From Crinalium sp. (lineage in GTDB: Bacteria; Cyanobacteriota; Cyanobacteriia; Elainellales; Elainellaceae): a DNA stretch of 64,000 bases. Shown piece by piece: positions 23,017 to 59,700 of the stretch. A program made the position numbers and the translations under genes. The notes beneath the pieces were generated by a model that saw only the letters and a program-made list of their open reading frames with translations, made no database searches and was not told where the DNA came from. How positions within the stretch are numbered: position 1 is the first letter of the stretch; every line of letters starts with the position of its first letter. The DNA is taken from the NCBI GenBank assembly GCA_036703095.1, contig DATNPS010000014.1, positions 3,822 through 67,821 of the forward strand. The letters are read 5' to 3'.

Positions 23017-23080
23017 AATTTAGTTGAACCTGAAATATTGCAGCACTTTTAAAACTTTCAAACAGAGTGAAATAGCTAAA

Positions 23081-23135
23081 CGTCTGTCTTGAAGTTGATG
23101 GAGAAATCCCCAACGAACGTACTTCAAGACAGACG
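23081..23135 (-). terminator. 15-bp perfect stem (CGTCTGTCTTGAAGT / 25-nt loop / ACTTCAAGACAGACG) between the giant gene stop and the lectin gene start
   Basis: Arms 23081..23095 and 23121..23135 are exact complements, positioned 10 nt downstream of the giant-gene stop on the minus strand. It could be a terminator, attenuator or RNA-processing site. Confidence 0.45.
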
Positions 23136-23144
23136 CTCAGCGTC

Positions 23145-26100
23145 TTAAATGCGAGGTCTACGGCGAATAATGATATTTTTGCCTTTCCCTGCGGAGATCT
23201 TGACGTGACGGGAGAAGACTACGATTCGGTCATTTCCTCGACCTGTGCGGATGATGCTACGACCACGACCCACTTGAATACGATTGTTGCCATTGCCAGC
23301 CGTAATGCGGTTATTGCCATCACCAACCGTAATGTGATTCGGGCCAGTTCCAGTCGTAATCCGGTTATTACCATGACCAGCGGCGATCGCCTTACGACCA
23401 TTGCCTGCTTTAACGGTATTGTTACCGTTACCTACGATGATGATGTCAGTTCCTTTGCCGGTGATGATTTGGTTATCGCCTTGACCTGCGATTACAGTAT
23501 TGTTTCCGCTGCCTGCGTTAACCACATTATTCCCTTCACCCGCTGAAATAACGTCAGCACCCTGTCCGGTCACGATCCAGTCAACACCGCTGCCAGCCGT
23601 GACATTGTTGTTCCCATTTCCTGCATTAATGGCATTTGTTCCATCTCCTGCATTGATCTGGTCATTGCCATTACCCGAGGTGATCTGATCATCGCCACTG
23701 CCTGTCAGAATGACATTATCGCCTCCACCAGCACTCACAGAGTTGTTGCCACTACCTGCATCAATCACGTCATTGCCAACTCCGGTGAAGATGGCATCAG
23801 CTCCAGTACCAGCCGTAATGTGATTGCTACCATCACCCGCATTGATAACGTTATTGCCATCGCCCGCGTTGATTTGATCATCACCACTGCCAGTTGTAAT
23901 CTGGTCATCACCAGTCCCGGTCGTGATCGTGTTAGCACCCTCGCCTGCGCTGATCGTATTGCTACCTTCACCCGCATTGATCTGATCGTTGCCACTACCG
24001 GACGTGATCTGATCATTGCCATTACCCGTTGTGATTTGGTTATCACCTTCACCCGCATTGATGGTGTTGTTGCCGACACCTGCATTGATGACGTCGTTAC
24101 CACTACCCGTGATGATTTGATCATCACCCCGGCCCGTGAGGATGGTATTGTTGCCGTCACCCGCCTGAATCAGATTGTTTCCATTGCCAGCCTGGATGAC
24201 ATCGTTACCGCTGCCCGTGGTAATTTGATCATGCCCATCACCTGTTGTAATCGTGTTGTCGCCTTCACCCGCGCTGATGCGATTGTTGCCGCTACCAGCA
24301 TTGATGGTGTCATGGCCACGACCAGTCGTCATCGCATTGTTGCCTTGACCTGCGGTGATCCGGTTGTTACCGTCCCCTGCATCAATGGTGTTATCACCGT
24401 CACCAACCTGGATGACATCATGCCCGGCTCCAGTCGTAATGTTGTTATTACCTTCCAGATCCAGAATGGTGTTATCACCCTGACCACCTTCAATACGATC
24501 ATTGCCACGGAGTCCCTGAATGACGTTGGCTTGGTTATCTCCAATGAGGTGATCATCAAAGTTAGAACCTTCCAGGTTTTCGATCGCAAAGTAGAGATCT
24601 CCTTTCGCTGCACCACCCAAGCCCACTCTCTGGGCAAGGTCAACCACAACCCCTTCAGTCGCAGTAGCGTAGGAAGCAGTGTCAGTTCCCTCACCACCAT
24701 CCACAATTTCAAAGGGATTGACGGCATGAGCGCGACCGCTATCGATTACGTCATCGCCCTGGCCGCCAAACAACATGTCGTTATCGTCTTGTCCAAAGAG
24801 TGCATCATTGCCCTCCTCTCCCAGGAGCACGTCATCACCTGCGCCGCCAAACACGGTGTCGCTACCCATCCCTGCATAGATTGCATTACTGCCCCGATCG
24901 CCAGTAATGGTGTCGTTAAAGGCGCTACCCAAGACGTTCTCAATGGTTTCTAGAGCATCAGTGCCACCGAAGCCATCCGTTGCTGTACCCGTTGCTAAAT
25001 TGACCGTGATGCCAGATGGATCTCGGCGGTAGTTGACTGTATCAATCCCCGCACCACCCTTGAGAGTATCGTTGCCCTCATTACCTAGCAGCAGGTCATT
25101 GCCACCCGATCCTTCAATCACGTTATCGGACGCGTTGCCAATTAAGACATCATCATGAGTGCTACCAGTGATGTTTTCCAGTCCCGTCAGGCGATCGTAG
25201 GTGTTAAAGCCATCTTGAGCCGTGCCTGTGTTGGCTACAAAGCTGGTTTCGATGTCACCCAGCAAGTAGTTGAAACCTGTGGTATTGGGATTGCGGTGTT
25301 GGTAACGGGAGCTTTCATCCAGGTTGACGACTGCACCTGCTACCGAGTTGTCGTAGCTAACAGTATCGACACCTTCGCCACCATCGATCGCATCATTGCC
25401 ATCATCACCCCGCATCCAGTCATCACCAACACCACCCGCAATCTGATCGTCACCGGATTGTCCGTACAGGGTATCGTTGCCTGCACCACCTACAATCACA
25501 TCATTGTCTGCACCGTTTCCGGGCAGGAAGTTCATCAGTGTAGTCCAGACGGTGCCAAAGAAGCGTCGTACCTTCGCGTTGCCGCCCGTGATGGTATCGT
25601 TACCACCGCCGACCGAGAGGTTGTCGTTACCAATTCCGCCAATCACAACTTTTTCACGATTGTCGGTGGTATCAACCACATCGGCTCCACCCACTTCCGT
25701 ATTGGTCGAAGTAATTTCAAAGCCCTCGCTATCGAAAGTGACGGTTGCCTCATCGCCAAAGATGACATCCGAACCTGTTGTTGTAGGATTGGCAGTCGTT
25801 TGAACGCGATCGCCGTTTGCTCCAGCAACCACGATATTTTCACCACCACCCAGACTAAACAGGTCAGCACCACCTTCTCCGATATTTTCGGACTGAGCCG
25901 TCACAACCCGTCCCGTTGCATCGACTTCAGCAGAAGCATCATCACCAAACAGGGTATTCGTGCCACCATTCGCGACGAACTGGTCATTGCCCACACCAGC
26001 AATCGCTGTTGTCGTACCGCTATTCAGGGTGAAAGTGTCTGTGCCACCCGCAGTAAAGTCACTGCTGGTGATTCTTTGGAAGTCACCCGATTCATTAAAC

Positions 26101-29100
26101 TGGGCGATCGCGTTGTCTCCCGTAATAATGGCTTGAGCAGACATTTCAGTACTGGAAACCGTAATGGTATCCGCTCCTGCGCCTGCAACAACAACGTTGT
26201 AGCCATTGGTAATCGAGACGGTATCCGCACCACCCTCTGCTGGGTTCAGAGACTTCACTTCAACCCGCTTGCCAGCGTTGAGCGTGACTTGACCTTCATC
26301 CATCAAGGTTAGGTTCGTACCATTGTTGGCCGTCAAAGTATCGTCACCTGCACCAGCGATCGCGGTATTCGTTCCGTTTTCCAAATGGATGGTGTCACTA
26401 CCACCAACCCCGCTAGCGGTGGACGTGAGCGTTTCTAACCGACCCATTTCATCAAAGGTGGCTTGAGCACCATCGGTCGTGAAGATGTTGGTTCCTCCAC
26501 TAGCCGTGACGGTATCGTTACCTGCGCCTGCGATCGCTGTCGTATTCCCGCTGACCAGGTTGAACGTATCGGCCCCACCGATGGCATCGTTGCTGCTGGT
26601 GATGGATTGGAGGAGTCCAGTGGCAGTGAACTGAGCGATCGCGCTGTCGCCCGTCACAATTGCCTGAGCATTCTCAGCGGTGCCATTGGTCGTAATGGTG
26701 TCGTTACCCGCACCCGCGATGACTACGTTATAGCCGTTCTGGATGTTGATCGTATCGGCACCGCCCACGGTTGGATTGAGCGATTGCATCTCTGTCAGAT
26801 TGCCTTCGTTGAAGGTTGCCTGACCTTCATCAGCATTGAGGCGATTGAGTCCACCCTTGAGCGTCAGAGTGTCATCGCCAGCCCCGGAAATGACGGTGTT
26901 CGTGCCGTCGGTAAGAGTGACAGTATCGCTTCCGGCAATGCCGCTTTGAATGGTTTCTAGTTGGGTCAGGTGTCCTGCCGCATTAAAGGTTGCCTGAGCA
27001 CCGTCGGTGGCAATCGCATTAGTGCCTCCTGTTGCTGTTACGGTGTCGTTTCCTGCACCAGCGATCGCCGTATTGGTACCGCTACCCAATGCGATCGTGT
27101 CTGCTCCACCTGCTTCAGGCTGGATACTGCGAATGGACTGTAGCGTACCGTCTGCGGTGAACCGAGCATCACCGTTGTCACTTACCAGGATGGCGATCGC
27201 ATCTGCTCCACCATTCGCGGTAGTGATCTGGTCTGCCCCTGCTCCCGTGATCACGACGTTGGTGCCGTTGCTGATCGTCACTGTATCCGCGCCGCCCACG
27301 GTTGGATTGAGGGATTGAAGCTGACTTAGATGACCTGCCTCAAAGGTTGCTGTTGCGTCATCTGTGAGGACGTAGTTGGTGCCTTTGGTGAGAGTCACCG
27401 TATCTGCCCCTGCACCTGCAATCACGGTGTTCGTACCCTCATATAGCTCAATCACATCGTCACCTGTTGCGCCGTTGATGGCACTGGTAACTCGGCTGAT
27501 GAGACCGTTGCTGGATTCAACCGTACCTTCGTCACCCAAAATAACGGCATGGGTGTCTGTAGAACGCTCGATAATGATGTGATCTGCACCGCCATCACCA
27601 ATGACCGCAAAGCGATCGAGCGACTGAAGCGATGCTTGAACCATGTCATCGCCTGTACCCGCATGAATGAACAGGTCGCCATTCTGAGCATTGACTTGAA
27701 TTTGATCGTTACCCGCCTCGGTGTCCAGTTGCAGGATCGTCTCGTTGAGGTCGGCAGGGGTACTCGTGTTGGCGATCGCCACCTGATCATTACCGCTGCC
27801 CGTCTTAACGGAAGACTCAACGCTGACAGACTGAATCGCAAAGGTGTCGTTACCAGAACCCAACTGGAGATTTACCTGATCGATGCCGCTATACTGCACA
27901 CCGATCGCCATGCCGAGTCCTGTCACTCTAGTTGCGGTGAGCTGACCGCTGTTGTCGGTGATGTCTCCACCATCGTTGAGGTTAAGCGTGTCGGCCCCTG
28001 TGCCACCTTCGATAGTGATGTGATTGGCGATCGCATCCAGCACCCCTTGAGGATTGCCCAGATTAACGGCATCCGCGCCATCGTTCGTCTTCAGCAACAC
28101 ATCACTGGAGGTGCTGTAGATGTTGAACGTATCGTTGCCAGTCCCCAAACGGATTTCGGTCGTTTCCAGACCACCATAGACGATACCCTGCGTCATACCC
28201 AATCCGGTGAGGGTAGAGTTTGTAAGGATGGCGCTGTTGTTTGCAGTATCACCAGAATCGTCTACTAACAGAAGATCTTGTCCTGTTCCACCTTGAATCG
28301 TTAGCAGAGCCGCGATGTCGTTTACCGTGTTGCTGGTATTGCGGATTTGAATCGTGTCGTTGTCATCACCAGCTTCAATGGTGGTCGCGTTATTGATGGC
28401 ATTGACGATGACCTGGTCATCACCCGCTTCTGTAGCAATTCGAGTGACAGCATCCGTGTTAAGCAGGGTGAAGATGTCATTGCCTGCACCCGTATTGAAG
28501 TCAAGGGTGCCTGTTGAAGTATTGATTAGCGTAATGATGTCTTGATCGGCTCCGAGATTGACAGCAATATTTTCTATGCTGTTGTACTGGAAACGACTAT
28601 CCAGCCCTAACCCTTGAATTGTGGTATCAGAGATGGAAATCGTCTCGTTGTAACCCAGATGATCTGCAAAGTCGAGCTTCAACAGGTCATCCCCACCATT
28701 GCCGCTAACCGTCAGTTGATAGTTGAAGTTTGCATCCTTCAACGTAAAGACGTCGCTACCGCCACTTAGGCGTACATCTAGATGTTGGAACCCGGTGTAG
28801 CCGAGGCTGCCCCGGTTCAGTTCCAACAGATCACCGTTCACTAGAGTGATATTGGCGGGTTCAACACTGTTGCTGTAGTCCACCTTGACGGTATTCTGCT
28901 GTCCGGCAGTAGTCAGGTTGAGCTTGGTGATGATGTCTGATGCGACCTGAGAGGTGTTGTTACCTGTTCCCAGATTGATATTAAGATTTTCAATCTGACG
29001 GTAAGTTACCGTGCCTGTCATGCCTGCTAGACCGCTGATCTTGTCGATAGTGACTTTCACAATCTGGTCAGCAGGATTGGCACTGTTGTCGATATTTAGC

Positions 29101-32100
29101 GTGTCGTTCAGGTCGTTGCCATCAACCGTGATGGACGCTTTAAGTTTATCAACAAGGTGATTTTCACCCAGGTTGATGATGTCGTCGCCGCCCATACCGC
29201 TGATGGTGGTGGCACTGTTGGTAGCCGTCAGATTAATGGTGTCGTTGTTCAGGTTACCGCTGATGATCAGACTGCTGCTGTTAAAGCTGCCGTCGAGCTG
29301 CATCAAGCTACCCACGCCCACGTCTTTATTGGTGGCACCAAAGTCACCTTGAATGATGATGCGATCGGGAGTGGTAATGGTTGCGGTGCGATCGATGGTG
29401 ACGTTATCGCCTGCCAGCAAGCTGATGTCGCCCTTCGTCGTGCGAATCGTAACTCCTGGGTCGATCGTCAGATCATCCCCTGCGGTTACCCCTTCACAGG
29501 CTCGCAGCGTAATCGTATCTCCTGCAACGATGTCGTTAGCAATAATCAGTGGACTGTGAGTTTCAATCTGCACCGCCCTACCCACAGTAATCGCATCAAC
29601 GGTAAGTTTGCCGTAGTTGCTCAGGTTCACTGAGGTTCCGGCGGCCATCGTCACGGTATTAAGGGTCGTTTCCAGGAGGTTAGTAACGCTGCCCACGCCA
29701 GCTGTGGTATTGGTCGTCAGGGTGTCTGCGATTAAATCGACTACGCCATCACTGAATTCGCTGTTAACCTGGCGAGCGGTGAAATGAACCGCATCGCTTA
29801 CAACCGTCCGACTCACGGAGATGGTATCTACAGCGGCAACGGTGAGGTTACCATCAGAAATCGCGACGTTATCCAGCGTTAGGGAGTTGGCTTCACGAAT
29901 GGTGAGATCACCCGTGTTGAGAATGGTTGAACCCAAACGATTGACATCGGTGGTGACATTAATATCGCTGAGGGCTGTCAAGTTCAAATTGGATGCTACC
30001 AGGGTTACGCCGTTAGCCGTGGTAATGTGTCCTCCAAAGAACTGTCCTTGAGTGTCAAAGTATCCCAGAGACGAGAGGGAAAGGGATTGGGCTGTGGGTG
30101 CGCCAATGACATTGATGTCAGCCCCACTGGTGATGTCTACACGGGTTCCCTTCAGGTCAGAGAAGCTGATGTTGCCCAGGTCACGCTGGGCCTTGATTGC
30201 GATCGAATCGGCAATCATCGGGAAGCCAAGGCGTGGATCACGCAGTTCGCCCACGGGAACAACAAGCTGCACACCCCCTGCCAGTTCTTCCTGCATCTTG
30301 GCTTGCAGATCCAGCGAGGTCGAGTTCACCTCTGTGAAATGGATCTGAACATTCTTGTACTGTGGATTTTGTTCCGCAAAGCGGCGGTAGTCTGACTCGG
30401 TAGAGTAAACCAGGGTGTAGGCAGATGTATCTACTCGGGTGCTCGTCTCCAGAATCGCTGAATCCAGCACTCTATAGACGTACAAGCCTTCTGCATTTTG
30501 ACGGGTGTAGGCTACGGTTCCATCCGGTTGTGTCCGATAGCGATCCTGTCCATCTGGGCCTTGATAAGTGACGTTGCCATCGACGCGATCGCGGTAATAT
30601 TCCCGGCCATCATTGCCAATGAAGACATACCGACCGCTCATCGATTCGCGCACTTGATAGCTAGTCATGTTCAGTACGGGAGCCAGTCGCAGAGCCGACA
30701 CCTGATCCGCCGCTATGGCAACTAGATTGCCACCCATTTCCTGGTAGACCTTGGTTCCCTGTCCCAGTTCAGCCTGATCCAGGTAGTAGGTTTCCTGGGT
30801 GTTGATATCGCGATAGCGGTAGTATCCAGCCAGATTACCCTCCAGCACCAGGTTACCCCGTGCTACCAGGCTGACCGTATTTAGCGGAATGGCTTTACCA
30901 TCACTGTTGGTAAAGGTTTCGGGAGACACAATCAACGTGCCCGAACCCAGTTCCAGCGTGAGATCCTTGGTGCGAATGTTGGGCAGTTGCACTGAACCCT
31001 GGAGAATGCCCGATACGCCCGAACCCAGGTGCATATTGTCTGCGTCGAGAGTAACGCTGTTATCAACCGTCAGCAGACCTGTCGTGATCAGGCTCAACGT
31101 TTGGGTCTTGAGCAGGCGATCGCTACCATCCTCCGTTGGACGAATCAGCATATTGCCTGTCCGGCTGACCAGTTCAATGCTGCCTGTGGGCGAAGATTCC
31201 AGATGAGCAGTGGCAATCAGATCATCGTGGGTAACCACACGGATGTTGCCATTCAAAGCAATCAGTTGCTCGAGGCTAAGGGCGTGGGGTTGAGCATTGT
31301 TGACATCGATGATGATGTCACCTTGGGTAGCGATCGCAGACAGCTCGTGCGTATCGATCTCCGGTGTGTTCAACCGTCCGACGTTCATTTCGATGCGGTT
31401 GGCTCGCAGGTCGGATTCACCATCGTCGGGAGTCGTAGCAGCGAGAGTACCACCTGCGTTGAGGACAATCGTGCCAAAGTTTATGCCTGCATCCACCAAC
31501 CCCAGAGTCATATCTCCACCCGAATTCAGGCGAATAGACTGCGCTGGAGCATCGTTATTCAGACGTAGTTGACCTGTAGTGAGAGTGCCAGAGGTGGTCA
31601 GGGTGAAGGTACCACCATCGCTGCTGCTGTCGTGCAGTTGCAGAGTGGCAGCGGTGTTCGACAGCGTGAAGGTACGGGTTCCCAACGTTTGAACGGTGAG
31701 GTCAGATACAGCTGTCGTCAGGTCAGTATTGCCATTGACCACCAGACTGAGGGATTGGCCATTGATACGGCTGCCCGTGTTCTTCAATGCATCCCCCTGG
31801 ATGTTGAAGGCGATCGCATTACCTGCATTCAACGTACCGTTTGCAGTAAAGCCAAGGCCGTTTTGCAGCACATTCATTGTCACGTCATGTCCAGCATTAA
31901 TCCGGTTGAGAATGACGCGATTGGCAGAGGTGATGGTGACATCACTGCCTGCGGTGAGCTGTTGCAGTTGAACCGCACCCACAGAATTGAGTGTGATGCT
32001 GCCTTGAGTAGCCGAGAGGGTTACGTTGGCGATCGCACCATCTTGTTTCGGTGCAACCGTGGCATTCACATCGCTGGTCGCGCTGGTTGCCGTCAGTTGA

Positions 32101-47100: not shown

Positions 47101-50100
47101 GCTCCCACACCCACGAAAGCGCTGGCATCCGTTGCACCGATTTCAACAATCTGCTGACCGTTCTGATTAAAGACATTAAAGTCAAAATTGCCCTTGAAGC
47201 GAGCATAGTCAGATACGGCTAGCTCCAACTCATCCAAATGAACACTGACATTGTTCTGATTACCGTTGGCGCTCACCTGTCCAGAGAAATTGAACAAATC
47301 AATCCCTACAAGAGCCGCATTGGCATGATCAATGGTGTATTCATACGTATTGTCAGGATTCAGCGTCAGGGTGAATGCAGCATCACTGAGATTCATGCCA
47401 ACATCATCTGCGGTGTCAGTTGTGCTGGCTCCCACACCGATAAAGGCAGAAACACTGGTCCCACCCAATTGAATGGTGGTCTGACCATTAGTGGTCGTAG
47501 TTTGGAATGTGAGATCACCGCTGAGTCTGGCATAATCTGCTAGCTGTAGTTCCAAGCCATTCAGGGCAACGTTAATTTGATCCTGATCACCATCCGCATT
47601 AACAGTGCCAGAGAATTGGAAGAGATCAATCCCCTTCAAGGCCACTTCTGCATTGCGAATCTGGTAGGTATAGTCGCTGCTGCCGTTGTAGGTGAGGTTA
47701 ATATCTGCATTGCTCAAACCCAAACCGCGATCGTCCGACTCATCATCCGTGCTGGCTCCTGCCCCCACAAAGGCAGACGCCTGAGTTGCATTCAGTTGAA
47801 TGGTTGTGTTACCTGCCATTCCCGATTCCACTGAGAAATCAAAGTTGCCCGTGAGCCTAGCGGAACTGCCAATTCCCAGCTTCATGTCCTGCAATTGCAG
47901 TTTGATGCTGTCTTTGTCGCCGTAAGCATTCACCTGACCGGAGAAGTTCAGCAGATCCAACCCGACCAGAGCCGCATTACCGTTCTCTAACGCATACTGA
48001 TAGCTACCATCCGTTCCCTTCTTGAAATGGAATTGGGCGTCCGTGAGTCTCGCGCCAATCTCATTGGGAGTGTCTTTGTTGATTCCAACAAAGGCCGCCA
48101 TCTGGTTGGCATCAATGGTTAGATCTCGTTGCCCATTAGCGGCCAGTTCACCAATGGTGACGGCAAAGTTGCCAGAAATATCCAGCACGCTACCCGCTTT
48201 CAATTGGGCGTTGCCTTCCACACGAGTCAGAGTTGATTCATCTTGTGTAAAGGCAACCGTGACGGATTCGTTATTACCGAGGGCGATCGCCTGATTCACC
48301 GCGCTACCCATCCGGTTAATTCGCGCCTTCATCGTGCCATCTAACGAGAAGCCGGGAATACCTGCCAATGCAGCCGTGCCGCTGGCTTCTAGTGCATATT
48401 GGACAGCGGTATTCCCGCTCTTCTGCATGACCAGACCGAGTTTGCCATTGGTTAGCTTAACGCCCAATTCTGTGGGCGTCTGGTAGCCGGAACCCATAAA
48501 GGCTGAGACGTTCGTTGCACCGATTAAGAATTGGGTGCGATCGCCTGTTGCATCTACAATCTGCTTCTGCTCAAAGAAGAACTCACCGCTAGCCGTCGCA
48601 ACGTTGGCGATGTTCAGATTCGCTGTTCCACTCAAACGAGTTAGGTGCCCTTCAGTGGCACTGAACTGAATGGGAACGGATTGCCCACTGGAGAGGGCGA
48701 TCGTTTCATTCACTGCTTGTTCTGTCCGGTTGACGGAAAGGGACAGATTATTCGCGGTCAATTGCACATCAGCAGAGCCACTCAACAATGCAGCAGAGCC
48801 ATTCGCCTGCAATGCATAGGTGCTGGCAGTTCCATTCGCGCCCTGATACAGCACCATCCCCAGATTCACATTGCTGAGGCTCACCCCGATCGCCTCACGG
48901 GTGTCATACCCAGTACCGACAAAAGCTCCAACTCCTGTTGCTCCCAGGCTGAGCTTGCTATCGTTCGCTTCATAGCGCAATGCAGTTCCGGCCAGAGTAA
49001 TGTTATCTCCCAAGCCCAGTGCAAAGTTACCCAGAGTCACTAAAGTGCTAGCCTGATTGCCACTCGCGGTAAGAGAGTCTACCGTTAAAGTGACATCGCT
49101 CAATCCACGCATTTGCACGCGGTTGGCAGCTAGGTTGTAGTTGTATGTGCGGTCAGGGGCGATCGCGATCGCTACATTGGCACCATCAATCCCAAAGCCC
49201 ACATCATCACTACTGCTGACGGTATCCGCTCCCTTACCGATGAGGGCAGATAGATTCGTGGCTGAGAAGTCTATCGTCTTACCGCTAGCGGTTTGTTGAG
49301 AAACAAAGTCGAGGGTTTCACCCGTTAGAGAAACTAGACCCCCTATACCCAGAGCATAGTTGTTAAGAGAAACGGTGCTGGTGGTGCGATCGCCCCTAGC
49401 ACTAACGGTTGCAGCAGAAAGAGTTAATCCCGGAATGCCAGCAATCGCAGCTTGAGCATTATCTAGCGCATAGCGATAGCTCTGATCTGCGTTTAGTGCA
49501 ACTTCTAAGCTGGCATTGCTAACCGACAGACCAACATCATCAGTGGTCGTAGCTGTATCTGCACCGTAACCAACTAGAGCAGCAATATTGCTGCCACTGA
49601 ACTTGATGTCCTTACCACTTGCGGTTTGTTGAGCGGAGAAGTTAAGGGCATTGCCACTGAGACGAGCAACACCACCTACACCAAACTCAAAACTACCCAG
49701 CGTTACGTTGGTGCTGGTTTGATCACCGGTTGCAGTGATATTGCTAGCATTGAGAATTAAGCCAGATACTCCAAGCACCGAAGTATTGGCATTGCTCAAG
49801 TTGTAGTTGTAGGTCTTGTCTGCGCTCAGGTTAACACTCAAAGTTGCATTGCTGACCGACAAACCAACATCATCAGTAGTTGTTGCTGTATCTGCACCAT
49901 AACCAACTAGAGCAGCAATATTGCTGCCACTGAACTTGATGTCTTTACCACTTGCAGTTTGCTGAGCCGTGAAGTTGAGAGTATTACCACTCAACCGAGC
50001 AATTCCACCAACTCCAAACTCAAAGCTAGCCAATGCGACATTCGTACTGGTTTGATTGCCTGTTGCGGTGACGTTAGTCGCATTTAGAGTAAGCCCAGAA

Positions 50101-53100
50101 ACTCCCAGAACGGAGGCATTCGCATTGATCAAGCTATAGTCATAGCTCTTGTCTGCGTTCAGATTGACACTCAAATTAGCACTGTTGATGGACAGACCAA
50201 CATCATCCGTCGTTGTTGTTGTGTCAGCCCCATAACCAACCAGAGCCGCAATATTGCTACCATTGAATTTGATGTCCTTACCGCTTGCTGTTTGCTGAGC
50301 CGTGAAGTTAAGAGCGCTACCACTAAGGCGGGCAACACTTCCTACTCCGAACTCAAAGCTACCCAAAGTAACATTGGTGCTGGTTTGATTCCCGGTTGCT
50401 GTGATGTTAGTCGCATTCAGGGTTAAACCAGTAACTCCTAAAACGGCAGCATTAGCATTGCTTAAGCTATAGGCATAACTTTGATCAGCATTCAGTATGA
50501 CGCTCAGATTAGCGCTACTGATAGACAAACCGACATCATCACTAGTCGTTGTGGTATCAGCGCCATAGCCAATTAATGCAGCAATATTGCTACCACCGAA
50601 CTTGATATCTTTGCCACTTACCGTTTGCTGAGCCGAGAAGTTAAGCATATTGCCGCTCAATCGTGCAACTCCACCGACTCCAAGTTCAAAACTACCTAAT
50701 ACAACATTGGTACTCGTTTGATTTCCAGTTGCTGTAATACCCGTTGCATTTAGGGTTAAACCAGGAACGCCCAGAATGGCAGCATTCGCATTACTCAAGC
50801 TGTAGGTATAGCTTTGGTCAGCATTCAGCGCAACATTCAGATTTGCACTGTTGATAGACAAACCAACATCGTCACTGGTTGTTGTCGTGTCAGCACCATA
50901 ACCAATTAAGGCAGCAATATTATTGCCACTGAATTTGATGTCTTTACCGCTTGCGATTTGCTGAGCCGAGAAGTTGAGAGCACTGCCACTCAATCGGGCA
51001 ATTCCACCGACTCCAACCTCAAAGTTACCTAATACCACATTGGTACTGGTTTGCGTTCCTACCGCTGTGATATTGCTGGCATTTAAGGTTAAACCAGGAA
51101 CACTGAGGATTGCAGCATTCGCATTGTTCAAGCTGTAGGCATAGCTTTGATCAGCATTCAGCGTAACGTTTAGGTCAGCACTATTGATGGACAGACCTAC
51201 ATCATCTGTAGTGGTAGCGGTATCCGCTCCATATCCAATGAGGGCAGCAATGTTACTACCACTAAACTGAATATTTTTACCGCTAGCAGTAGTTTGGGCA
51301 GAGAAATTGAGGGCATTACCACTGAGCCGTGCAATTCCACCTGTACCAAATTCAAAGTTACCCAAGGCAACACTGGTACTGGTTTGATTTCCGGTTGCTG
51401 TGATATTGGATGCGTTCAGAGTCAGACCATTAATGCCCAACAGCCCTGCACTGCTGGCAGTGACGTTGTAGGTGTATTTGCCCTGGTTATCGAGGGCGAT
51501 CGCGACATTTGCACCCTGAACGCTTAAGCCGCGATCGTCGCTGGTGTCTGTGGTACTGGCTCCATAGCCAACAAGGGCAGAGGCATTGGTGGTGGAGAAG
51601 GTAAAGTTACCGTTTTGAGAGTAGAACGAAAGGGCACTGCCTTCTAAACGGGTTAAATCCGCTAACCCAAGGGCAAAGGCTCCTGTAGTGACAGAAAGAT
51701 TATCTTGAGTGCCGTCGATATTGACTTGATCAGCGCTGATAGTCAGTCCGTTTAATCCCCGTGTGGCGATCGCCCCATTACGGAAACTATAGCTATAGGT
51801 TTTATCTGGATTGAAAGTCAGATCTAAATTCGCATTACTGATGAACAACCCATGATCATCTGAGATATCTGGTGTATCAGCACCATAGCCAACGAATGCC
51901 GAAAGCTGTTGGCCGCTGAAATGAATGGATTTTGCACTGCCAACTGGTTCAACATTGAACTGTACATTGCCACTGCTAAGACTTAATAAGCCACCCAGAC
52001 CGAGGGTGGCATCCGCCAAACTGAGGCTGAACTGATTCGTGGTGTTATTGCCACTGGCTTGTATCGAACTAGCGGATAGGGTCAGCCCATTAAATCCAAC
52101 TGCGGCAAAATCAGCGTTGTTCAGCAGATAGTTGTAGGAGGAATCTGCATTGAGGGCCAGGTTAAAGTCAGCGTTGCTGAGGCTAAAGCCCTGGTCATCG
52201 CTTGTAGTGGCTGTATCTCCTCCAATCCCTACAAAGCTAGAAATGTTATTTCCTGTAACTTGAGTATTGCCATTACCGTCATTCTCAAAGCTGAAGTCGC
52301 CAGAGAGTTTAACCGCACCTGCAAGGTTGAGTTCAGCAGCACCGCTGATCCGAGTTACATTGTCGGGCGTGGTGAATTGTAGGGCGATCGCCCCACCTGG
52401 GGTGGTAATCGTCTCATCGATCACCTGACCTGTGCGGTTAACTTGCACATCCAGATTGCCACTCACTTCTACTCCGGTTACGCCCGTCAGTTCAGCCGCA
52501 CCTTCACCACTGAGGGCATAGGTCATGGCCTGCTGTTCGTTCAGCGGTTTCGTATAGTCAATAGTTTTGTAGAGCGCTAATCCTAGATGGGTGTCTGTTA
52601 ACTTAACGCCTGTTTCCTGGGCTGTACCATAGTCAGAACCAACGAAGGCATAGCCATTTGTGATACCTGCTAGCAGTTTGGTCGCTTCCTTTTGTTGCTC
52701 GTCGTAAGTCATGGCAACGTCGCGGAAGCTAACCCGCCGACCTGCGGTAACTGCCGTTGCGGTTGCTAATGAATCAAGACGAGAGGTTGTAGTTCCTGCT
52801 GTGAGGGTAACCGTAATTCCCAGATCGCGACTGAGACGTTCCTGTAAGGCGACTGTCGTATCCCGACGCTGTTGGGCCAAGTCGTTGGCCGTGGAAAAGT
52901 CTACTCCACTGCGGACAAATTGATGATTGCCTGTTCCTCCTGCGGAAGTGAGGTCAATTGCCTGTCCGTTTGGCGTTGCTGAGAGCTGAAGTGATGTTCC
53001 TTGATTGCTAATGACATAATAGGTTGCTCCATCCACTAAACCACCGATCGCCGCTGTGCCATTGGTGCGGTACTGCACGGCTTCCCCGACCTTTAAATCA

Positions 53101-56100
53101 GTTGGAGTGGGCAGAAGAATGCGATCGCCTTCCAGGTCAACCTGAATATCATTCTGGGCAGTAAAACTCGTTCCCATCTGTACGAAGCGGTGTTCACCTC
53201 GACCATCGCTGGTGAGATCAATAGCCGCTCCGCCGGGAATTGCTGTAAGTTGAATTGCCGTATCGCTAATCCGCTTAACGTAGTACGTATTGCCAAACGT
53301 AAGCCCCCCAATAGCGGGATTACTGCCAGCGTCGTAGCGAACTTGTGCGCCATCTGTCAGGGTGTGAGCGGTGCTAAAGATAATTTGGTCTTGTGCTGCA
53401 TCGACAGCCTGTTGCCCCGCAGAGGCAAAGCTCCACGTAGGCATCAGGCGGAAGCCATCCCCACTGCCTGGATTGGAGAGAGTCACGAAGCGTCCTGCGT
53501 TCAGATCTGCCTCGGTTTCTGCAAACTGGATGCGCCCCTGAGAATCTACTTTGACAACATAAAGATGCTCTTGCGCAACGCTATAGACCTGAGGTTGAGT
53601 GGAATAGGGAATCGCTGTAATGCCCCCGATGGGAGACTGAGCATTCACTGCATTGGGATCAAGTTGCACCATCACGGCTTGCCCAGTCTTGAGGCCGTGG
53701 GCATAGTTTAGTTTTAAGGTGGTGCTGTTGACAAAGGTGATATCTGATTTAGCGTGAAAATCGAGTAGGCTGCGATCCGCAGTGCCGTTGCTGTAGCGTT
53801 CGATCAGGGTAAACGTTTGGGTACCCGTACCAGGAGTAGTGAGATCGAGAGCACGGTTTGCCAGGGCATCACTGCGAGTTTTCGCCAGCTTGATGACAGT
53901 ATCACTGACGCGAATGACATAGTACGGATACACCTCTGTGCTCGTTTGCAATGCGTCGAACGTACCGCCCATTGGGTCGCCATTCACTGCATCGTAGTAC
54001 TGAATTTTGTCTCCTGTATTGAGATAGTGCGTACCCGTGAATGTGATGGTTTCGTTGGTGATGTCAACACTGCCAGAAGCATTTTGGGTGGGGAAACTGA
54101 CGACTGGCCGCAGGGCATGAAGTCCTACGCTGTCAGACGTGAGGTTAATCACTGAACCACCTGTGAGCGATCGCAGCCTTACCGCTGTTGGACTAACCAC
54201 CTCAACGAAATACTCCTGACCATTCACCAACCCACCGATCGCCGGATTGGTGCCCGCATCATAAACCACACGGCTCAAGTTGGTGAAACCGTGAGGTGTA
54301 TTGAAGAGAATCAGCTCTTGCTGAAGATCAACATGGATCTGGTTGGTTGCGCCGAACTCGACTACGGGTTTCAGTTGTTGAACTCCACTTCCCGCACTGG
54401 TCAGGTCAATCACAGTTCCGTCCAGACCCGCCAATTGGATAGTTTGGCTATCAACTACGACAACCTTATACGCCTGTCCATCTACTAAGCCACCGATCGC
54501 TGTATTGCCACTTCCGGCGGTGTAAATAACCGTTTGCCCATTCGCGAAGCTGTGGTTCTGGTACAGGTTGAGGCGATCGCCCACCACATCTACGAAATCT
54601 TCGTTAAACGCATATCCATCTACCGTTGCGCTGATGGACTTCACGACAGCATTTTGAGCTTCTAATTGCGCTTTGGCGATCGCCAACTGAGTACGCATCT
54701 GTTGATACAGCGTTTCGCTGATGGTCGTCTGCTGCTCGTCTAACAGAACGGGATTGACCGATACAGCGGATGAAAGCCCTGTTGCACCGGGAGTTTGCTG
54801 CGTAAACAGTTCAAGCGAGAAATCGCCTCCAAATGCCAACGCTCCTGCCACATTTGCATCAACTCTGCCCTCAACCCGCAGCTGGTTTTCCTGCCCCTGT
54901 GTAAAGACAACCGGGAACTGTCTCCCATCTCCCAACGTAATGAACTCATTGACGGTGCTACCTGCGCGGTTCAGCCGAATGGCCAGCGAACCTTCAACCG
55001 TTAGATCCGTCGCGCCAGTCACCGATCCGGAACCGTTGGCAACCACCGCGTAGCGACTGCCATCGCCGTTGTAAATCACCAATCCCAAATCGCCATTGCT
55101 GAGTTTGACCCCGGTTTCCTGACTGGTACCCTCTGCGGCTCCCACAAATGCCTGGATTCCCGTAGCCGCAATGCGTAGCGGATCGCTGCCATTTTCAGCG
55201 GGATCAAATGCGAATCCAGTGCCTTTGACATAGCCAATCCCTTCTAAGCCCAGTTCAAAGCTGCCAGTAGAGACCGTCGTCGTGTTCTGATCACCACTGA
55301 CATTGACCTGATTCACAGCCAGCGTCAAACCAGAAATGCCCACGAGAGCAGCATTGGCGTTAGTCAGGGTGTAGGTATAGGTCTGGTTATTGGCAACAGT
55401 AACGGTGAACGTCGCGTTGGTGATTGACAGTCCTTTATCGTCCGTTAGGGTTTCGGTGTTTGCACCATAGCCGAGCAGGGCTGAAGCGTTGAGTGCGCTG
55501 AGCGTAAAGGGTTGACCTTCCTGAAGGTTAAATGCCAGCCCATCTCCCTTCACCCGCGCCACATTGCCCACGCCCAGCGCAAAGGCATCCATGCTAACGG
55601 AGAGGTTCGTGCGATCGCCTGCCACACTTACTCCACCAGCCTGTACGTCTAATCCGGGAACCCCAGAAACAGCAATATCGGCATTGTCTAGCCGATACTC
55701 ATAGCTATTATTGGCTTGGAGCACAAGGTCAAGGTCGGCATGGCTAATCGCTAACCCTATATCGTCGTTGGGATCAGGATTGGTGACGTTGTATCCAGCG
55801 GCGGCAGAGAGGTTTCGCCCCTTAAATTTGACGGTTTGATCCGTACCCATTCGCTCAACCGCAAACTCTAACGATGCTCCACTCAGTGCAATAAGATTGC
55901 CCAACTGCAACTGAGCATTCTGCAAATTGAAGCTTGTGTGATCTCCATCCCCATTAGCAATTACTGCATCAGCAGAAACGCTCACTCCGGTCATACCGCG
56001 AGTGGTGATGTGACCGGACTGGAGGCTGTAGGAGTAAGTGCGATCGCCTTTCAGCAACAGATCTAGATTGACATTGCTGATCGCTAAACCAATGTCATCG

Positions 56101-58454: not shown

Positions 58455-59230
58455 GCACTTTGACTAATTTTTATTGGGAGAATATAGGCGCATAAAAAGA
58501 GACTCCCCGATGAGAGGGAGACTGTTTATCTTCAAATTTTCTATAACGCTCAAAAATGGTTCGTGAGCACAGGGTGGGGAGGCAGGTGAATTTAACGGTT
58601 GAGGGGCTAAACCTGGCAAATGAACTCGCGGCTATCCAAACGAAATCCACCTTCGCGAACTGGGCGTTGGCAGCCTGCGAAGGTCGGTTTTATCTGGTAA
58701 CTGCGGTTTTAACTGCCACCCTCCTAACGCAAGTCCTAAATTAGGAGCGGCAGGAAGGGAGAAGACGGTCAAGAAAAAGCTGCTTCAGGAAACATCTCTA
58801 CTATTTTGAATTGAATGAGACATTAATAGCATTATGCTTGGAGCAAGTCTCACGGTGTTTTCAACCGAGAAATGCAGGGACTGTCAGCCGGACTGAGTAA
58901 GTATACGGAAGCAATAGCTCTAAGGTTATGTCTTTTTCGAAAAACTATCTCTACAACAAAGTTTCTTTTCCCCTACAAATGCTTTTCTCAGCAAGAAAAA
59001 CTTCTTTCTCTCTAAAAACCTATTTTCTCTTTAAATAAAAAATCAGTCATTAAGCAACTTAAATTGAGCTGTCTTTAAACAAACGTGGATTCGATGAATG
59101 CGTAAAGCATTCCCCTCACGGAGCCAGGAAAATGTTTTGCGCACTTAAACTGAAAGCAGATTGAGTCAATGAACCCATCAGCTATTCAAATTAACCGGCA
59201 ATTGAACGATCGACAATTGTCTTGATTAAA

Positions 59231-59700
59231 ATGGATACGATTAAATCTCTTCTATCAGAAGATCAAATGCCGGATGCCTGGTACAACATTCAGGTAGATT
59301 TTCTTACCCCTCTACCTCCTGTTCTCCACCCAGGAACAGGTCAACCCATCACTCCAGACGATCTGCCTCCTCTGTTGCCCATGAGCCTAATCGCTCAGGA
59401 AGTGAGCCAAGAGCGTTGGATTGAGATTCTGGATGAGGTGCAGTCAATTTATCGTCAGTGGCGTCCCACTCCCCTCAGTTCTGCTGAAAGCCATAAGCCG
59501 AATACAGCCGTGGCCCAAGCGTATGACAACAAACAGGTAGTCGTAGGCGATCGACCACTGAAACTGGAGTCGGACAGTGGGGAGCTTTCCTGGCCTTTGC
59601 GGATGTGCTGTTTGGGCTAGAAAATTTAGTCTACATGATGAAGGTCAGCTACAACCAAAAGCCTTATCGTCGTGCATCGAATGCTCTCTCACTAGGAGTA
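59231..59700 (+). pseudogene. TrpB2-type (tryptophan synthase beta-like, PLP-dependent) gene remnant with internal deletion, frameshift and 3' truncation
   Basis: MDTIKSLLSEDQMPDAWYNIQVDFLTPLPPVLHPGTGQPITPDDLPPLLPMSLIAQEVSQERWIEILDEVQSIYRQWRPTPL jumps directly to SHKPNTAVAQAY, skipping ~30 residues including the PLP-lysine neighbourhood. A second frame then reads [10 protein letters not shown] and a third reads [10 protein letters not shown] before ending. Confidence 0.7.

What the first reader, a model, noticed from the sequence alone, without database searches (positions are those of the whole stretch)
23145..58454. One uninterrupted 35.3-kb ORF (11,769 codons) fills 55% of the window
The ORF track shows no stop for 35,310 nt on the minus strand. 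The product has a DUF4347-like N-terminal domain, no signal peptide and RTX repeats at the C-terminus. Between them lie at least nine compositionally distinct blocks. These are two arrays of a ~111-aa module (~26 units in total), six IGGL..YYV..IDLTS modules and a ~1,800-aa non-repetitive core. There is also an internal RTX block, a beta-helix-like shaft with two aromatic-rich inserts, GLGM modules, 531-bp supra-repeats and a 48-unit nonapeptide array. It would rank among the largest bacterial proteins. Most of its length maps to no family I can name.
Basis: partly seen in the sequence, partly recalled or inferred. Interest (0 to 1): 0.8.

Follow-up and report, generated by a model that had tools for sequence, protein, structure and literature searches.

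The report
Giant calcium-binding surface protein gene
This is a real, conserved 35-kb gene of a filamentous cyanobacterium that encodes a 1.2-MDa calcium-binding protein, most likely an exported surface fibre, with an N-terminal domain that looks like a cysteine protease; it is unusual in size and parts but belongs to a known kind.

Summary
Window 23145..58454 (-) is one stop-free frame of 11,769 codons (probable ATG start at codon 7; 1,226 kDa, pI 4.3, 3 Cys). It is not an assembly artefact: the longest exact internal DNA repeat is 44 bp, and an independent metagenome contig reproduces the last 1,329 codons at 99.99%. Orthologs at 64-70% identity show codon-position identity of 72/81/42%, which indicates purifying selection. 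New here: DUF4347 has a caspase/CPD-like cysteine-protease fold with a conserved His172-Cys215 pair, homologous to the T6SS effector Tce1. The 111-aa modules are not Ig-like. The IGGL module is shared with cyanophage tail fibres. The core-RTX-shaft body recurs in 6,000-7,500-aa 'LEPR-8K' proteins of several phyla. Best reading: a type-I-secreted, Ca2+-folded surface megaprotein, a non-canonical variant of RTX adhesins. It is large but far from the bacterial record. Function, secretion route and protease activity remain inferred.

The parts
23145..58454 (-). Whole ORF: 11,769 codons from TTG plus stop (23145-23147). The probable start is the ATG at 58436 (codon 7).
58104..58454 (-). aa 1-117: N-terminal leader. 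It is polar and acidic, with no signal peptide and no LEPR-8K motif.
57642..58103 (-). aa 118-271: DUF4347 with a caspase/CPD-like (clan CD) fold. The putative dyad is His172 (57939-57941) and Cys215 (57810-57812).
54984..57599 (-). aa 286-1157: first array, 8 copies of the ~111-aa all-beta module.
52812..54665 (-). aa 1264-1881: six IGGL..YYV..IDLTS modules of 82-122 aa. The same module occurs in cyanophage tail-fibre or baseplate proteins.
46938..52811 (-). aa 1882-3839: second array, 17 copies of the ~111-aa module. The six most similar copies lie at aa 2351-3016.
41055..46937 (-). aa 3840-5800: degenerate modules followed by a core without internal repeats. This is the most conserved part of the protein, with 78% identity to the ortholog at aa 4501-5000.
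40485..41054 (-). aa 5801-5990: internal RTX (beta-roll) block.
29355..40484 (-). aa 5991-9700: 'shaft' without detectable internal repeats and of unknown fold. It has 328 relatives. It carries aromatic-rich inserts at aa 7951-8560 (32775-34604) and aa 9151-9360 (30375-31004).
27615..29354 (-). aa 9701-10280: 'GLGM' modules, which are degenerate Gly/Asp-rich repeats.
25635..27614 (-). aa 10281-10940: 177-aa (531-bp) supra-repeats made of three ~59-aa subunits.
24495..25634 (-). aa 10941-11320: canonical RTX nonapeptide blocks separated by spacers.
23148..24494 (-). aa 11321-11769: uninterrupted nonapeptide array (x-U-x-x-G-x-G-x-D/N) that runs to the last residue. The final ~45 aa are basic and degenerate (...IIIRRRPRI).
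21178..23016 (-). Downstream 612-aa gene on the same strand, encoding C-type lectin + Big_5 + RTX with a typical RTX C-terminal end. The gap is 128 nt with no terminator-like site in it, so it is a possible operon partner.

Best explanation
The gene encodes a 1.2-MDa, acidic, almost cysteine-free, calcium-binding megaprotein of a filamentous cyanobacterium. The contig is annotated in NCBI as a 'Crinalium sp.' MAG. The protein is most likely exported C-terminus-first by a type I secretion system encoded elsewhere in the genome. Once outside, the ~2,000-aa C-terminal Gly/Asp repeat region (RTX beta-roll, 177-aa supra-repeats and GLGM modules) would fold on binding Ca2+. The conserved core-RTX-shaft body, with its two aromatic-rich inserts, would be the distal working part and a candidate ligand-binding region. 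The two arrays of 111-aa all-beta modules and the six phage-fibre-like IGGL modules would form the long stalk. The N-terminal DUF4347 domain emerges last. It is a compact alpha/beta fold related to the cysteine protease domains of MARTX and TcdB toxins (Peptidase C80, clan CD). It would therefore act as the cell-proximal plug or anchor, as a self-processing or release protease, or as both. Shown here: the gene is real and is under purifying selection. Also shown are the domain order, the RTX content, the DUF4347 fold, its conserved His/Cys pair, and the family relationships. Inferred: the T1SS route, the surface location, the adhesin or fibre role and the protease activity.
For: Gene reality. 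There is a single stop in 11,770 codons. Codon-position GC resembles that of neighbouring genes. No DNA repeat of 55 bp or more occurs in the ORF. Independent contig L005 equals window 20130-27135 with one mismatch. The ortholog in Cyanobacteria bacterium RM1_2_2 is colinear over aa 1218-9149. It is 64% identical over 4,768 aligned positions, and codon positions 1/2/3 are 72/81/42% identical. A third ortholog is 70% identical over aa 4203-7390. A Nostoc cf. commune homolog spans 1,525 + 8,164 codons in one frame. Independent sequences span most block junctions. Export and T1SS-type features. There are 25 HemolysinCabind stretches and matches to RTX toxin and serralysin NCBIfam models. There is no signal peptide or TM segment. 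The pI is 4.3 and there are 3 Cys in 11,769 aa. The adjacent same-strand gene encodes a lectin-RTX protein. DUF4347. The Pfam hit has E 3e-55. S-H172-G and Y-G-C215 are conserved in 96-100% of 122 homologs. The AF2 model has pLDDT 90.3. The best Foldseek hit is the Tce1 structure 9qpe_G (E 1.3e-6), followed by caspases 3/6/7, legumain, CED-3 and Csx29. The family profile aligns both motifs to 9qpe_G, whose depositors call it a 'DUF4347 domain-containing protein'. Tce1 is described as a putative cysteine protease with a TcdB-CPD-like dyad, His186/Cys240 (PMC13323088). There is a sub-threshold Peptidase_C80 hit at E 0.0025, seen in 9 of 61 family members. DUF4347 sits at the N-terminus of proteins with very diverse passenger domains such as cadherin, Big, lipase, GH18, S8 and RTX, which suggests a generic secretion or processing role. 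Stalk. The three-module AF2 model is all-beta with pLDDT 83 and pTM 0.76.
Against: No T1SS ABC transporter, membrane fusion protein or TolC gene lies in the 64-kb window. The C-terminus lacks the non-repeat tail seen in the neighbouring 612-aa RTX protein and in P0011. Instead the nonapeptides run to the last residue and turn basic. Relatives that share the body carry an N-terminal LEPR-8K motif, and several have no RTX tail, so the body is not tied to T1SS. No canonical retention module or Ig-like extender was found. Protease activity has not been shown even for Tce1 (PMC13323088). No expression data exist.
Confidence: 0.6

Rival explanations
1. It is a MARTX-like autoprocessing exotoxin. In this reading the giant RTX protein is secreted and the DUF4347/CPD-like domain cuts it into effector pieces that act on other cells such as grazers or competitors.
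For: The head has a CPD-like (Peptidase C80-like) fold with a conserved His/Cys pair. Its closest solved relative, Tce1, is a T6SS effector candidate. The protein contains RTX repeats.
Against: No recognisable effector or enzymatic domain occurs anywhere in 11,769 aa. The window has no RtxC-type acyltransferase and no rtx transport genes. The protease-like domain sits at the extreme N-terminus rather than internally next to effectors. About 60% of the protein is structural repeat or shaft. The domain is ~160 aa, shorter than the C80 profile region needed for the InsP6-binding flap (not tested).
Confidence: 0.1
2. It is a cell-envelope, sheath or motility component (like SwmB, oscillin or an S-layer) rather than an adhesin. 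In this reading the fibre forms part of the trichome surface used for gliding or sheath organisation.
For: The host is a filamentous cyanobacterium. The protein is a Ca2+-binding nonapeptide protein without a signal peptide. From my own knowledge, oscillin and the S-layer protein Sll1951 are RTX-type cyanobacterial surface proteins, and SwmB is a 10,791-aa surface protein needed for Synechococcus swimming.
Against: No sequence comparison with SwmB, oscillin or Sll1951 could be made with the tools at hand. No motility genes lie in the window. This is a sub-case of the best explanation rather than a contradiction of it.
Confidence: 0.2
3. It is exported or anchored by a route other than T1SS, for example a system that recognises the N-terminal head, as presumed for LEPR-8K relatives. 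In this reading the RTX-like repeats serve only as a Ca2+-dependent structural scaffold.
For: Homologous 6,000-7,500-aa proteins carry LEPR-8K heads and non-RTX C-termini. The giant's C-terminus is atypical. No T1SS genes lie nearby.
Against: There is no Sec or Tat signal. About 2,000 aa of RTX-type repeats sit at the C-terminus, as in T1SS substrates. In cyanobacteria T1SS genes are commonly unlinked to their substrates (own knowledge).
Confidence: 0.1
4. It is an assembly artefact, a chimera or a decaying pseudogene whose long frame is not expressed as one protein.
For: The source is a metagenome-assembled contig. Orthologous contigs show frame switches near aa 7895 (L001) and near aa 7383 (L007), and the Nostoc homolog has an in-frame TAA.
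Against: The longest exact internal repeat is 44 bp. An independent assembly is identical over 7 kb. Third-codon-position divergence of 42% identity against 81% at position 2 shows selection on the protein. Most block junctions are reproduced in other organisms. The interruptions in relatives lie at different places, and at least one is in a low-coverage contig (4.3x for L001). A dead gene of 35 kb would accumulate stops quickly.
Confidence: 0.03

Closest known systems
RTX adhesins (LapA, MpIBP, FrhA, SiiE type; T1SS-anchored fibrillar adhesins)
   Same: Both are the largest protein of the genome class, 1,500-15,000 aa. Both lack a signal peptide and are acidic. Both have a folded N-terminal domain, long tandem ~100-aa beta modules, a complex non-repeat region towards the C-terminal half and a C-terminal RTX beta-roll.
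   Different: No retention-module family match was found, and the head is DUF4347 instead. The extender modules are not Ig-like: they have no Big Pfam hit and no beta-sandwich Foldseek match. No adjacent T1SS genes or LapG/LapD-type genes are present. The C-terminal end is atypical.
MARTX toxins and large clostridial toxins (Peptidase C80 cysteine protease domain)
   Same: The domain is of clan-CD type, with His after one strand and Cys after the next. There is a sub-threshold C80 profile hit. MARTX toxins also have an RTX context.
   Different: Here the domain is N-terminal and ~160 aa. There are no effector domains, no A/B glycine-rich MARTX repeats were detected, and no acyltransferase gene is present. 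InsP6 dependence is unknown.
Tce1 (PA0256), the DUF4347 T6SS effector of Pseudomonas aeruginosa (PDB 9qpe; PMC13323088)
   Same: It belongs to the same Pfam family. It is the best structural match (E 1.3e-6, TM 0.54-0.58). The SHG and YGC motifs align.
   Different: Tce1 is a 310-aa protein loaded into Hcp3 rings. Here the domain heads an 11,769-aa RTX protein. Identity is only ~19%.
LEPR-8K / 'LEPR-XLL domain-containing' giant proteins (NF012209), e.g. Maridesulfovibrio frigidus WP_031484953.1 and Methylocystaceae NVK17780.1
   Same: They share a colinear core, internal RTX block and shaft. Identity is 33-41% over up to ~4,300 aa.
   Different: Their heads are the 24-residue LEPR-8K motif rather than DUF4347. 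They lack the 111-aa arrays, and several lack the long RTX tail.
Cyanomyovirus tail-fibre or baseplate giant proteins (phrog_2885; Prochlorococcus phages MED4-213 and P-HM1)
   Same: They share the IGGL module. The hit to phrog_2885 has E 1e-30 with 5 stretches. tblastn gives 32-34% identity over ~140 aa.
   Different: Only this ~90-aa repeat is shared, and nothing else in the protein matches phage families.
SwmB of marine Synechococcus, and cyanobacterial RTX surface proteins such as oscillin and Sll1951
   Same: All are giant or RTX-type cyanobacterial cell-surface proteins without classical signal peptides (own knowledge; SwmB literature located).

Membership tests
Pfam PF14252 DUF4347 | Profile match above the gathering score | tested here: met
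   186.8 bits against a cut-off of 24.6, E 3e-55, aa 118-271; 193.9 bits on the isolated segment.
Pfam PF14252 DUF4347 | Family-wide conserved S-H-G and Y-G-C motifs | tested here: met
   H172, G173 and C215 are present, and they are conserved in 96-100% of 122 homologs.
Clan CD cysteine peptidases (caspase / legumain / C80 CPD fold) | Alpha/beta fold with His-Gly after one strand and Cys after the next strand | tested here: met
   AF2 model with pLDDT 90.3, strands ending at H172 and C215. Foldseek hits to caspases, legumain, CED-3 and Csx29 at E 1e-4 to 3e-3, but with modest TM scores of 0.35-0.43.
Clan CD cysteine peptidases (caspase / legumain / C80 CPD fold) | Proteolytic activity dependent on the dyad | not testable with these tools
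   This needs biochemistry. It is not demonstrated even for Tce1.
Pfam PF11713 Peptidase_C80 | Profile match above the gathering score | tested here: not met
   18.5 bits against a cut-off of 23.8, E 0.0025. It is a distant relative, not a member.
RTX proteins (PF00353 HemolysinCabind) | Tandem GGxGxDxUx nonapeptides | tested here: met
   293 bits and 25 stretches. There are 15 canonical and 53 relaxed motifs, and 47 in-register terminal units.
RTX adhesins (as defined in bioRxiv 10.1101/2025.09.30.679566) | N-terminal retention module | tested here: not met
   No retention-module family appeared in Pfam or NCBIfam. The head is DUF4347. A functional analogy is possible but untested.
RTX adhesins (as defined in bioRxiv 10.1101/2025.09.30.679566) | Tandem array of Ig-like (BIg) extender domains | tested here: not met
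   The tandem array exists with 25 modules, but it gives no Big-family hit. The AF2 three-module model has no Ig-like or other PDB neighbour; the best hit has E 0.028 and TM 0.16.
RTX adhesins (as defined in bioRxiv 10.1101/2025.09.30.679566) | C-terminal beta-roll followed by a T1SS signal | tested here: inconclusive
   The beta-roll repeats are present, but they run to the last residue and end in a basic tail. This differs from the neighbouring 612-aa RTX protein.
T1SS substrate locus | Linked ABC transporter, MFP and TolC genes | tested here: not met
   None is present in the 64-kb window. The rest of the genome was not available.
MARTX toxins | Internal CPD flanked by effector domains, with rtxC acyltransferase and rtxBDE genes | tested here: not met
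   No effector domains and no such genes were found.
NCBIfam NF012209 LEPR-8K (LEPR-XLL) giant proteins | N-terminal LEPR-XLL motif | tested here: not met
   Relatives score 27-33 bits, but the giant's first 294 aa give no hit at E<=1. Only the body is shared.
SwmB-like giant cyanobacterial surface proteins | Sequence homology to SwmB | not tested

The most novel reading that the evidence does not exclude
DUF4347 may be an active, self-contained maturation or release protease that heads a large class of exported megaproteins. It would fold before or at the end of C-terminus-first export and plug or anchor the chain at the envelope. It would then cut the chain free, combining in cis the roles played by the retention module plus LapG in LapA-type adhesins, or by the CPD in MARTX toxins. 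It would be functionally interchangeable with the LEPR-8K head that the same protein body carries in other phyla. In addition, the 111-aa modules would represent a new, non-Ig, continuous beta-sheet extender fold.
Probability: 0.2. Interest if true: 0.7.

Novelty: new variant of a known kind. Interest (0 to 1): 0.45.

Why it matters
The gene provides a complete, uninterrupted example of a megaprotein family that public assemblies almost always break into fragments. Most hits found here were partial or frameshifted. It ties DUF4347, a 'domain of unknown function' seen here in cyanobacteria, Proteobacteria and Nitrospirota, to the cysteine-protease domains of MARTX and clostridial toxins. It also places that domain at the head of exported giants. 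This suggests a testable processing or anchoring mechanism for non-canonical RTX surface proteins. The analysis further defines three uncharacterised building blocks. The first is a non-Ig 111-aa extender. The second is the IGGL module shared with cyanophage tail fibres. The third is the core-RTX-shaft body shared across phyla. All three are good targets for structural work and for understanding how filamentous cyanobacteria build their surfaces. As a size record it is unremarkable among bacteria.

Tried and rejected
Curated family and structure searches:
- Pfam and NCBIfam scans of the whole protein gave only DUF4347 and RTX.
- The DUF5004, DUF2689, BRCA2 and TrbD hits have no individually significant stretch, so I treat them as repeat or composition artefacts.
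- PDB sequence searches with the module profile, the IGGL profile, the DUF4347 segment alone and 9,000 aa of core and shaft found nothing beyond RTX.
- PHROGs scans of the modules, core, shaft and inserts found nothing.

Structure comparisons of the three-module model:
- Foldseek found no significant neighbour in the PDB or BFVD.
- The weak hits to beta-barrel porins and to a VPS13-like 'Chorein-N' protein (E 0.03-0.04) show only a generic antiparallel beta-meander. I do not claim a repeating beta-groove fold.

Other tests that gave nothing:
- Hydrophobic autocorrelation of the shaft, used as a beta-helix test, showed no signal above shuffles.
- An exact 36-mer search of metagenome contigs for the core found nothing.
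- Rfam found no RNA family in the window.
- The genome-contig scan did not return the source genome itself, only a 68%-identical relative.
- The exact protein was not returned by the protein searches, so the source was identified through its neighbours instead.

Hypotheses considered and rejected:
- Repeat collapse and a chimeric join.
- An alternative downstream start that would remove the 117-aa leader. This is possible but unsupported, and the independent gene call uses the codon-7 ATG.
Full report
THE OBSERVATION

The ORF list gives one frame at 23145..58454 on the minus strand, with 11,769 codons and a TTG first start. Translation has a single stop, at the end. The first ATG is codon 7, at window 58436. 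An independent JGI gene call on another contig of the same organism begins exactly there (offset derived from the shared sugar-transporter gene). The likely product is therefore 11,763 aa. It weighs 1,226 kDa, has pI 4.3, and has Cys only at positions 65, 215 and 9653. GC at the three codon positions follows the pattern of the neighbouring genes along the whole length. A stop-free run of this length cannot arise by chance.

IS THE ASSEMBLY SOUND?

- The window is part of an 84.9-kb contig that NCBI holds as a third-party-annotated MAG labelled Crinalium sp. The neighbours are HEY9618847 to HEY9618865. From the numbering, the giant is probably HEY9618862; this is an inference.
- The NorB neighbour clusters at 90% or more with Leptolyngbya strains. 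The host is therefore a filamentous cyanobacterium whose genus label should be treated loosely.
- Repeat collapse is unlikely. The longest exact direct repeat inside the ORF is 44 bp, and no 55-mer occurs twice.
- The most similar module copies form a 333-bp repeat with 5.7 copies. They are only 69-79% identical at the DNA level.
- A contig from a different metagenome assembly (JGI 3300037473; L005, 7,006 bp) equals window 20130-27135 with one mismatch and no gaps. It therefore reproduces the last 1,329 codons, the stop and the downstream gene.
- Another assembly holds the first 887 codons next to the same upstream genes.

Most junctions between blocks are also reproduced in other organisms:
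- head to modules: P0132, P0133 and P0002;
- modules to IGGL: P0133, and L001, which continues into the second module array;
- modules to core: P0001, P0002 and L001;
- core to RTX to shaft: P0003, P0183 and L001;
- shaft to the C-terminal repeats: P0185.

IS IT UNDER SELECTION?

- The one related locus in the genome collection is Cyanobacteria bacterium RM1_2_2 contig JAAUQT010000011 (L001). It is colinear with aa 1218-9149.
- Over 4,696 aligned codons (aa 3145-7890, 64% protein identity), the nucleotide identity at codon positions 1, 2 and 3 is 72%, 81% and 42%. This is the signature of purifying selection on the protein.
- The core at aa 4501-5000 is the most conserved stretch, at 78%.
- A third ortholog (metagenome contig QQTW01003687, L007) is 70% identical over aa 4203-7390 in one frame.
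- Both orthologs change frame once, but at different places: near aa 7895 in L001 and near aa 7383 in L007. L001 has only 4.3x coverage, and L007 ends in an inverted duplication. I read these as assembly errors, although real lesions cannot be excluded.

ANATOMY

I found the following, in order.

1. aa 1-117 is a polar leader without a signal peptide or any hydrophobic segment.
2. aa 118-271 is DUF4347 (E 3e-55).
3. aa 286-1157 and aa 1882-3839 hold 8 + 17 = 25 copies of a ~111-aa module. They were found with an iterated HMM and aligned. G57, G70 and Y90 are invariant.
4. aa 1283-1849 holds six IGGL..YYV..IDLTS modules of 82-122 aa.
5. aa ~3840-5800 holds degenerate modules followed by a core without internal repeats.
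6. aa 5801-5990 is an internal RTX block. Pfam detects it, and it matches CyaA, serralysin, lipase and AlgE RTX chains in the PDB.
7. aa 5991-9700 is a 3,700-aa 'shaft' with almost no internal repeats.
8. The shaft has two aromatic-rich inserts, with 12.5% W/Y/F at aa 7951-8560 and 10% at aa 9151-9360. Their flanks have 2-5%.
9. aa 9701-10280 holds 'GLGM' modules.
10. aa 10281-10940 holds 177-aa supra-repeats, each made of three ~59-aa subunits.
11. aa 10941-11320 holds canonical RTX blocks.
12. aa 11321-11769 is a nonapeptide array in perfect register to the last residue. Of 53 in-register units, 47 fit the motif and 45 are uninterrupted.

The shaft being 'beta-helix-like' could not be confirmed.

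THE N-TERMINAL HEAD

Reading the sequence suggested a caspase-like His...Cys arrangement: 'AVHIISHG', then 'DILLYGCDLA'. I tested this in five ways.

- Conservation. Among 122 homologs, S171-H172-G173 are 95-100% conserved and Y213-G214-C215 are 96-99% conserved.
- Model. An AlphaFold2 model of aa 100-290 with a 61-sequence alignment has mean pLDDT 90.3. It is an alpha/beta fold in which the strands end at H172 and C215.
- Structural neighbours. The best Foldseek match in the PDB is 9qpe chain G, the Hcp3-Tce1 complex of Pseudomonas aeruginosa (E 1.3e-6, TM 0.54-0.58). Next come caspases 3, 6 and 7, legumain, CED-3 and the CHAT protease Csx29 (E 1e-4 to 3e-3, TM 0.35-0.43).
- Sequence link to Tce1. 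The depositors name that chain 'DUF4347 domain-containing protein', and the family profile aligns both motifs to it. Tce1 is PA0256, already noted as a DUF4347 protein (PMC8262886). It was described in 2026 as a putative cysteine protease whose His186/Cys240 superpose on the dyad of the TcdB cysteine protease domain. Activity was not shown for Tce1 (PMC13323088).
- Sequence link to Peptidase C80. The giant's DUF4347 gives a sub-threshold Peptidase_C80 hit (E 0.0025, 18.5 bits against 23.8) over the stretch that includes both residues. So do 9 of 61 family members.

The fold assignment is therefore well supported, while catalysis is inferred. In the homolog list, DUF4347 is fused to very different passengers, including cadherin, Big, FG-GAP, lipase, GH18, subtilisin and RTX. 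In the family alignment it lies close to the N-terminus. This pattern points to a generic role in export, anchoring or processing rather than in binding.

THE MODULES

A three-module model (aa 606-941, aligned with 16 other triples from the same protein) is all-beta. It has several 13-17-residue strands, mean pLDDT 83 and pTM 0.76. The high pTM suggests that the modules pack into one continuous body rather than beads on a string. Foldseek finds no significant neighbour. The best PDB hit has E 0.028 and TM 0.16, and the hits are beta-barrel porins. The best viral hit is a VPS13-like protein with E 0.036. If the modules were bacterial Ig-like sandwiches, the PDB would have returned many matches, so the canonical extender type is excluded. 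The caveat is that the alignment consisted only of internal copies and I could not inspect coordinates.

The IGGL modules recur in tandem in about 50 metagenomic proteins of 1,500-2,100 aa with no Pfam annotation, and in one flagellin-like protein. They hit phrog_2885 'baseplate wedge subunit' (E 1e-30, five stretches). They also match the tail-fibre proteins of Prochlorococcus myoviruses MED4-213 and P-HM1 at 32-34% identity. They are thus a fibre-building unit shared between phage tails and cellular surface proteins.

THE BODY

The core has 11 relatives in the first search. They include 64%- and 54%-identical fragments from cyanobacteria, a Magnetococcales protein (37% over aa 3742-6179), and ~3,000-aa RTX proteins that share aa ~4400-5940 at ~25%.

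The exhaustive search with aa 6000-7199 found 328 relatives, 141 of them at E<1e-30. Many are 6,000-7,500 aa long and colinear with aa ~3,900-9,200 at 33-41% identity. Named examples are:
- Maridesulfovibrio frigidus WP_031484953.1 ('calcium-binding protein', 7,259 aa);
- Methylocystaceae NVK17780.1;
- Chlorobium MBV5330735.1 ('LEPR-XLL domain-containing');
- a Verrucomicrobia protein.

The N-termini tested carry the 24-residue LEPR-8K motif (NF012209, 27-33 bits), which the giant lacks. One relative, P0213 (4,642 aa), has DUF4347 plus modules, core and RTX. The protein is therefore a mosaic. It combines a widely distributed body with a cyanobacterial stalk, one of two alternative heads, and a long RTX tail.

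In Nostoc cf. commune SO-36, a complete genome, the homolog is 1,525 + 8,164 codons in one frame. It is interrupted by a single TAA inside the first IGGL module.

SURROUNDINGS

- A 612-aa gene lies 128 nt downstream on the same strand. It encodes C-type lectin + Big_5 + RTX and has a typical RTX C-terminal end.
- No terminator-like site lies in that gap, but one follows the 612-aa gene. Co-transcription is therefore plausible.
- The remaining genes encode two-component sensors, redox enzymes, qNOR, LysR and a sugar porter. No T1SS component is in the window.
- Rfam finds nothing.

HOW IT MOST LIKELY WORKS

The features fit a type I secretion substrate. The protein has no signal peptide, is very acidic, has almost no cysteine, and carries ~2,000 aa of Ca2+-binding repeats at the C-terminus. 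Such substrates are exported unfolded and C-terminus-first, and they fold outside on binding Ca2+. This is established for RTX proteins and summarised in bioRxiv 10.1101/2025.09.30.679566.

In RTX adhesins only the N-terminal retention module folds without Ca2+, and it plugs the outer-membrane channel. DUF4347 is a compact alpha/beta domain at the same position, so it is a natural candidate for that role. Its protease-like dyad also suggests self-processing or release, as the C80 domain does in MARTX toxins. The module arrays would form the stalk. The conserved core, shaft and aromatic inserts would form the distal working region.

These steps are inferred. The evidence against them is threefold:
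- no T1SS genes lie nearby;
- the repeat-to-the-end basic C-terminus is atypical;
- relatives with LEPR-8K heads lack RTX tails.

COMPARISON AND NOVELTY

The protein works like an RTX adhesin but fails two of that family's three minimum features. It has no retention module and no Ig-like extenders, and the secretion signal is unresolved. I therefore file it as a non-canonical variant, not a member.

It is a true member of DUF4347 and of the RTX repeat class. It is a distant relative of Peptidase C80 rather than a member. It shares the body, but not the defining motif, of the LEPR-8K proteins.

In size it is at the top of what is known for cyanobacteria: 1,226 kDa against 1,200 kDa in PMC9529120. 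Among bacteria it is ordinary, since predicted proteins reach 85,804 aa and the >=10,000-aa class occurs in many phyla.

The gene is already in a public MAG, and its family is present in databases but uncharacterised. Interest is moderate (0.45). The most valuable leads are the protease-like head of exported megaproteins, the non-Ig extender module and the phage-shared IGGL module.

Noticed in passing
L006 ~14579-14581 (Nostoc cf. commune SO-36, AP025732.1): The homologous giant gene of this complete Nostoc genome is annotated as two ORFs of 1,525 and 8,164 codons. They lie in the same frame and are separated by a single TAA inside the first IGGL module. This could be a nonsense mutation, a sequencing error or a readthrough site. 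Uninterrupted, the gene would be ~9,690 codons.
   Followed up: partly
window 49407-51404 (aa 2351-3016): The six most similar 111-aa modules are 74-81% identical to the first copy in protein but only 69-79% identical in DNA. The longest exact repeat in the whole ORF is 44 bp. The copies are therefore old and kept similar by selection on the protein, with synonymous sites diverged. This also limits recombination and makes the gene assemblable from short reads.
   Followed up: partly
window 21178-23016 (-): A 612-aa C-type-lectin + Big_5 + RTX protein (NCBI HEY9618861.1, 'lectin-like protein') lies 128 nt downstream of the giant on the same strand. No terminator-like site lies between them, and a hairpin follows at 21136-21112. 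It may be a co-exported partner or glycan-binding accessory.
   Followed up: partly
window 52812-54665 (aa 1264-1881): The IGGL module matches phrog_2885 'baseplate wedge subunit' (E 1e-30). It also matches tail-fibre proteins of Prochlorococcus myoviruses MED4-213 and P-HM1, and a flagellin-like protein (P0164). It is a fibre repeat shared by phages and cells, and it has no Pfam model.
   Followed up: partly
window 40485-41054 (aa 5801-5990) and just after: The internal RTX block is followed by a 'GDDTYAFGDDFGLDRLID...FDFS' stretch that looks like the segment normally found after the last RTX repeats near a C-terminus. About 3,000-aa relatives (P0006-P0010) have the core followed by RTX repeats towards their C-terminal part. 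This suggests that the body arose by fusing a core+RTX protein to the shaft.
   Followed up: no
L001 ~22045-22072 and L007 ~9500: Both orthologous contigs change reading frame once, at different positions (about aa 7895 and aa 7383 of the giant). L007 also ends in an inverted copy of its own sequence. These are probably short-read assembly errors in giant genes.
   Followed up: partly
window 58455-61120: A 2.6-kb stretch upstream of the giant has only short ORFs. It contains a perfect 20-bp-stem hairpin at 59939-59983 and a terminator-like hairpin at 58503-58520, about 50 nt upstream of the giant's start. The latter could be an upstream gene's terminator or a 5'-leader element.
   Followed up: no
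window 23148-23282 (last ~45 aa): The otherwise very acidic protein ends in a strongly basic, degenerate nonapeptide tail (RIQVGRGRS IIRTGRGND RIVVFSRHV KISAGKGKN IIIRRRPRI). This is unlike the hydrophobic or neutral C-terminal ends of the neighbouring RTX protein and of P0011.
   Followed up: no
window 17398-20787: A quinol-type nitric-oxide reductase large subunit (NorB with an N-terminal cytochrome-c-like domain, 769 aa) sits next to a 192-aa multicopper-oxidase fragment. The NorB gene is shared at 90% or more with Leptolyngbya strains.
   Followed up: no
proteins P0187, P0188, P0190, P0005: Giant relatives from Desulfobacterota, Alphaproteobacteria, Chlorobi and Chloroflexi start with the LEPR-8K motif (..LEQRILLSG..). 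Shortly after it, P0187 and P0188 also share a 'GTVVNxGxVSPGNSPG' segment. There is almost no literature on this head, with only 2 papers mentioning the name.
   Followed up: partly
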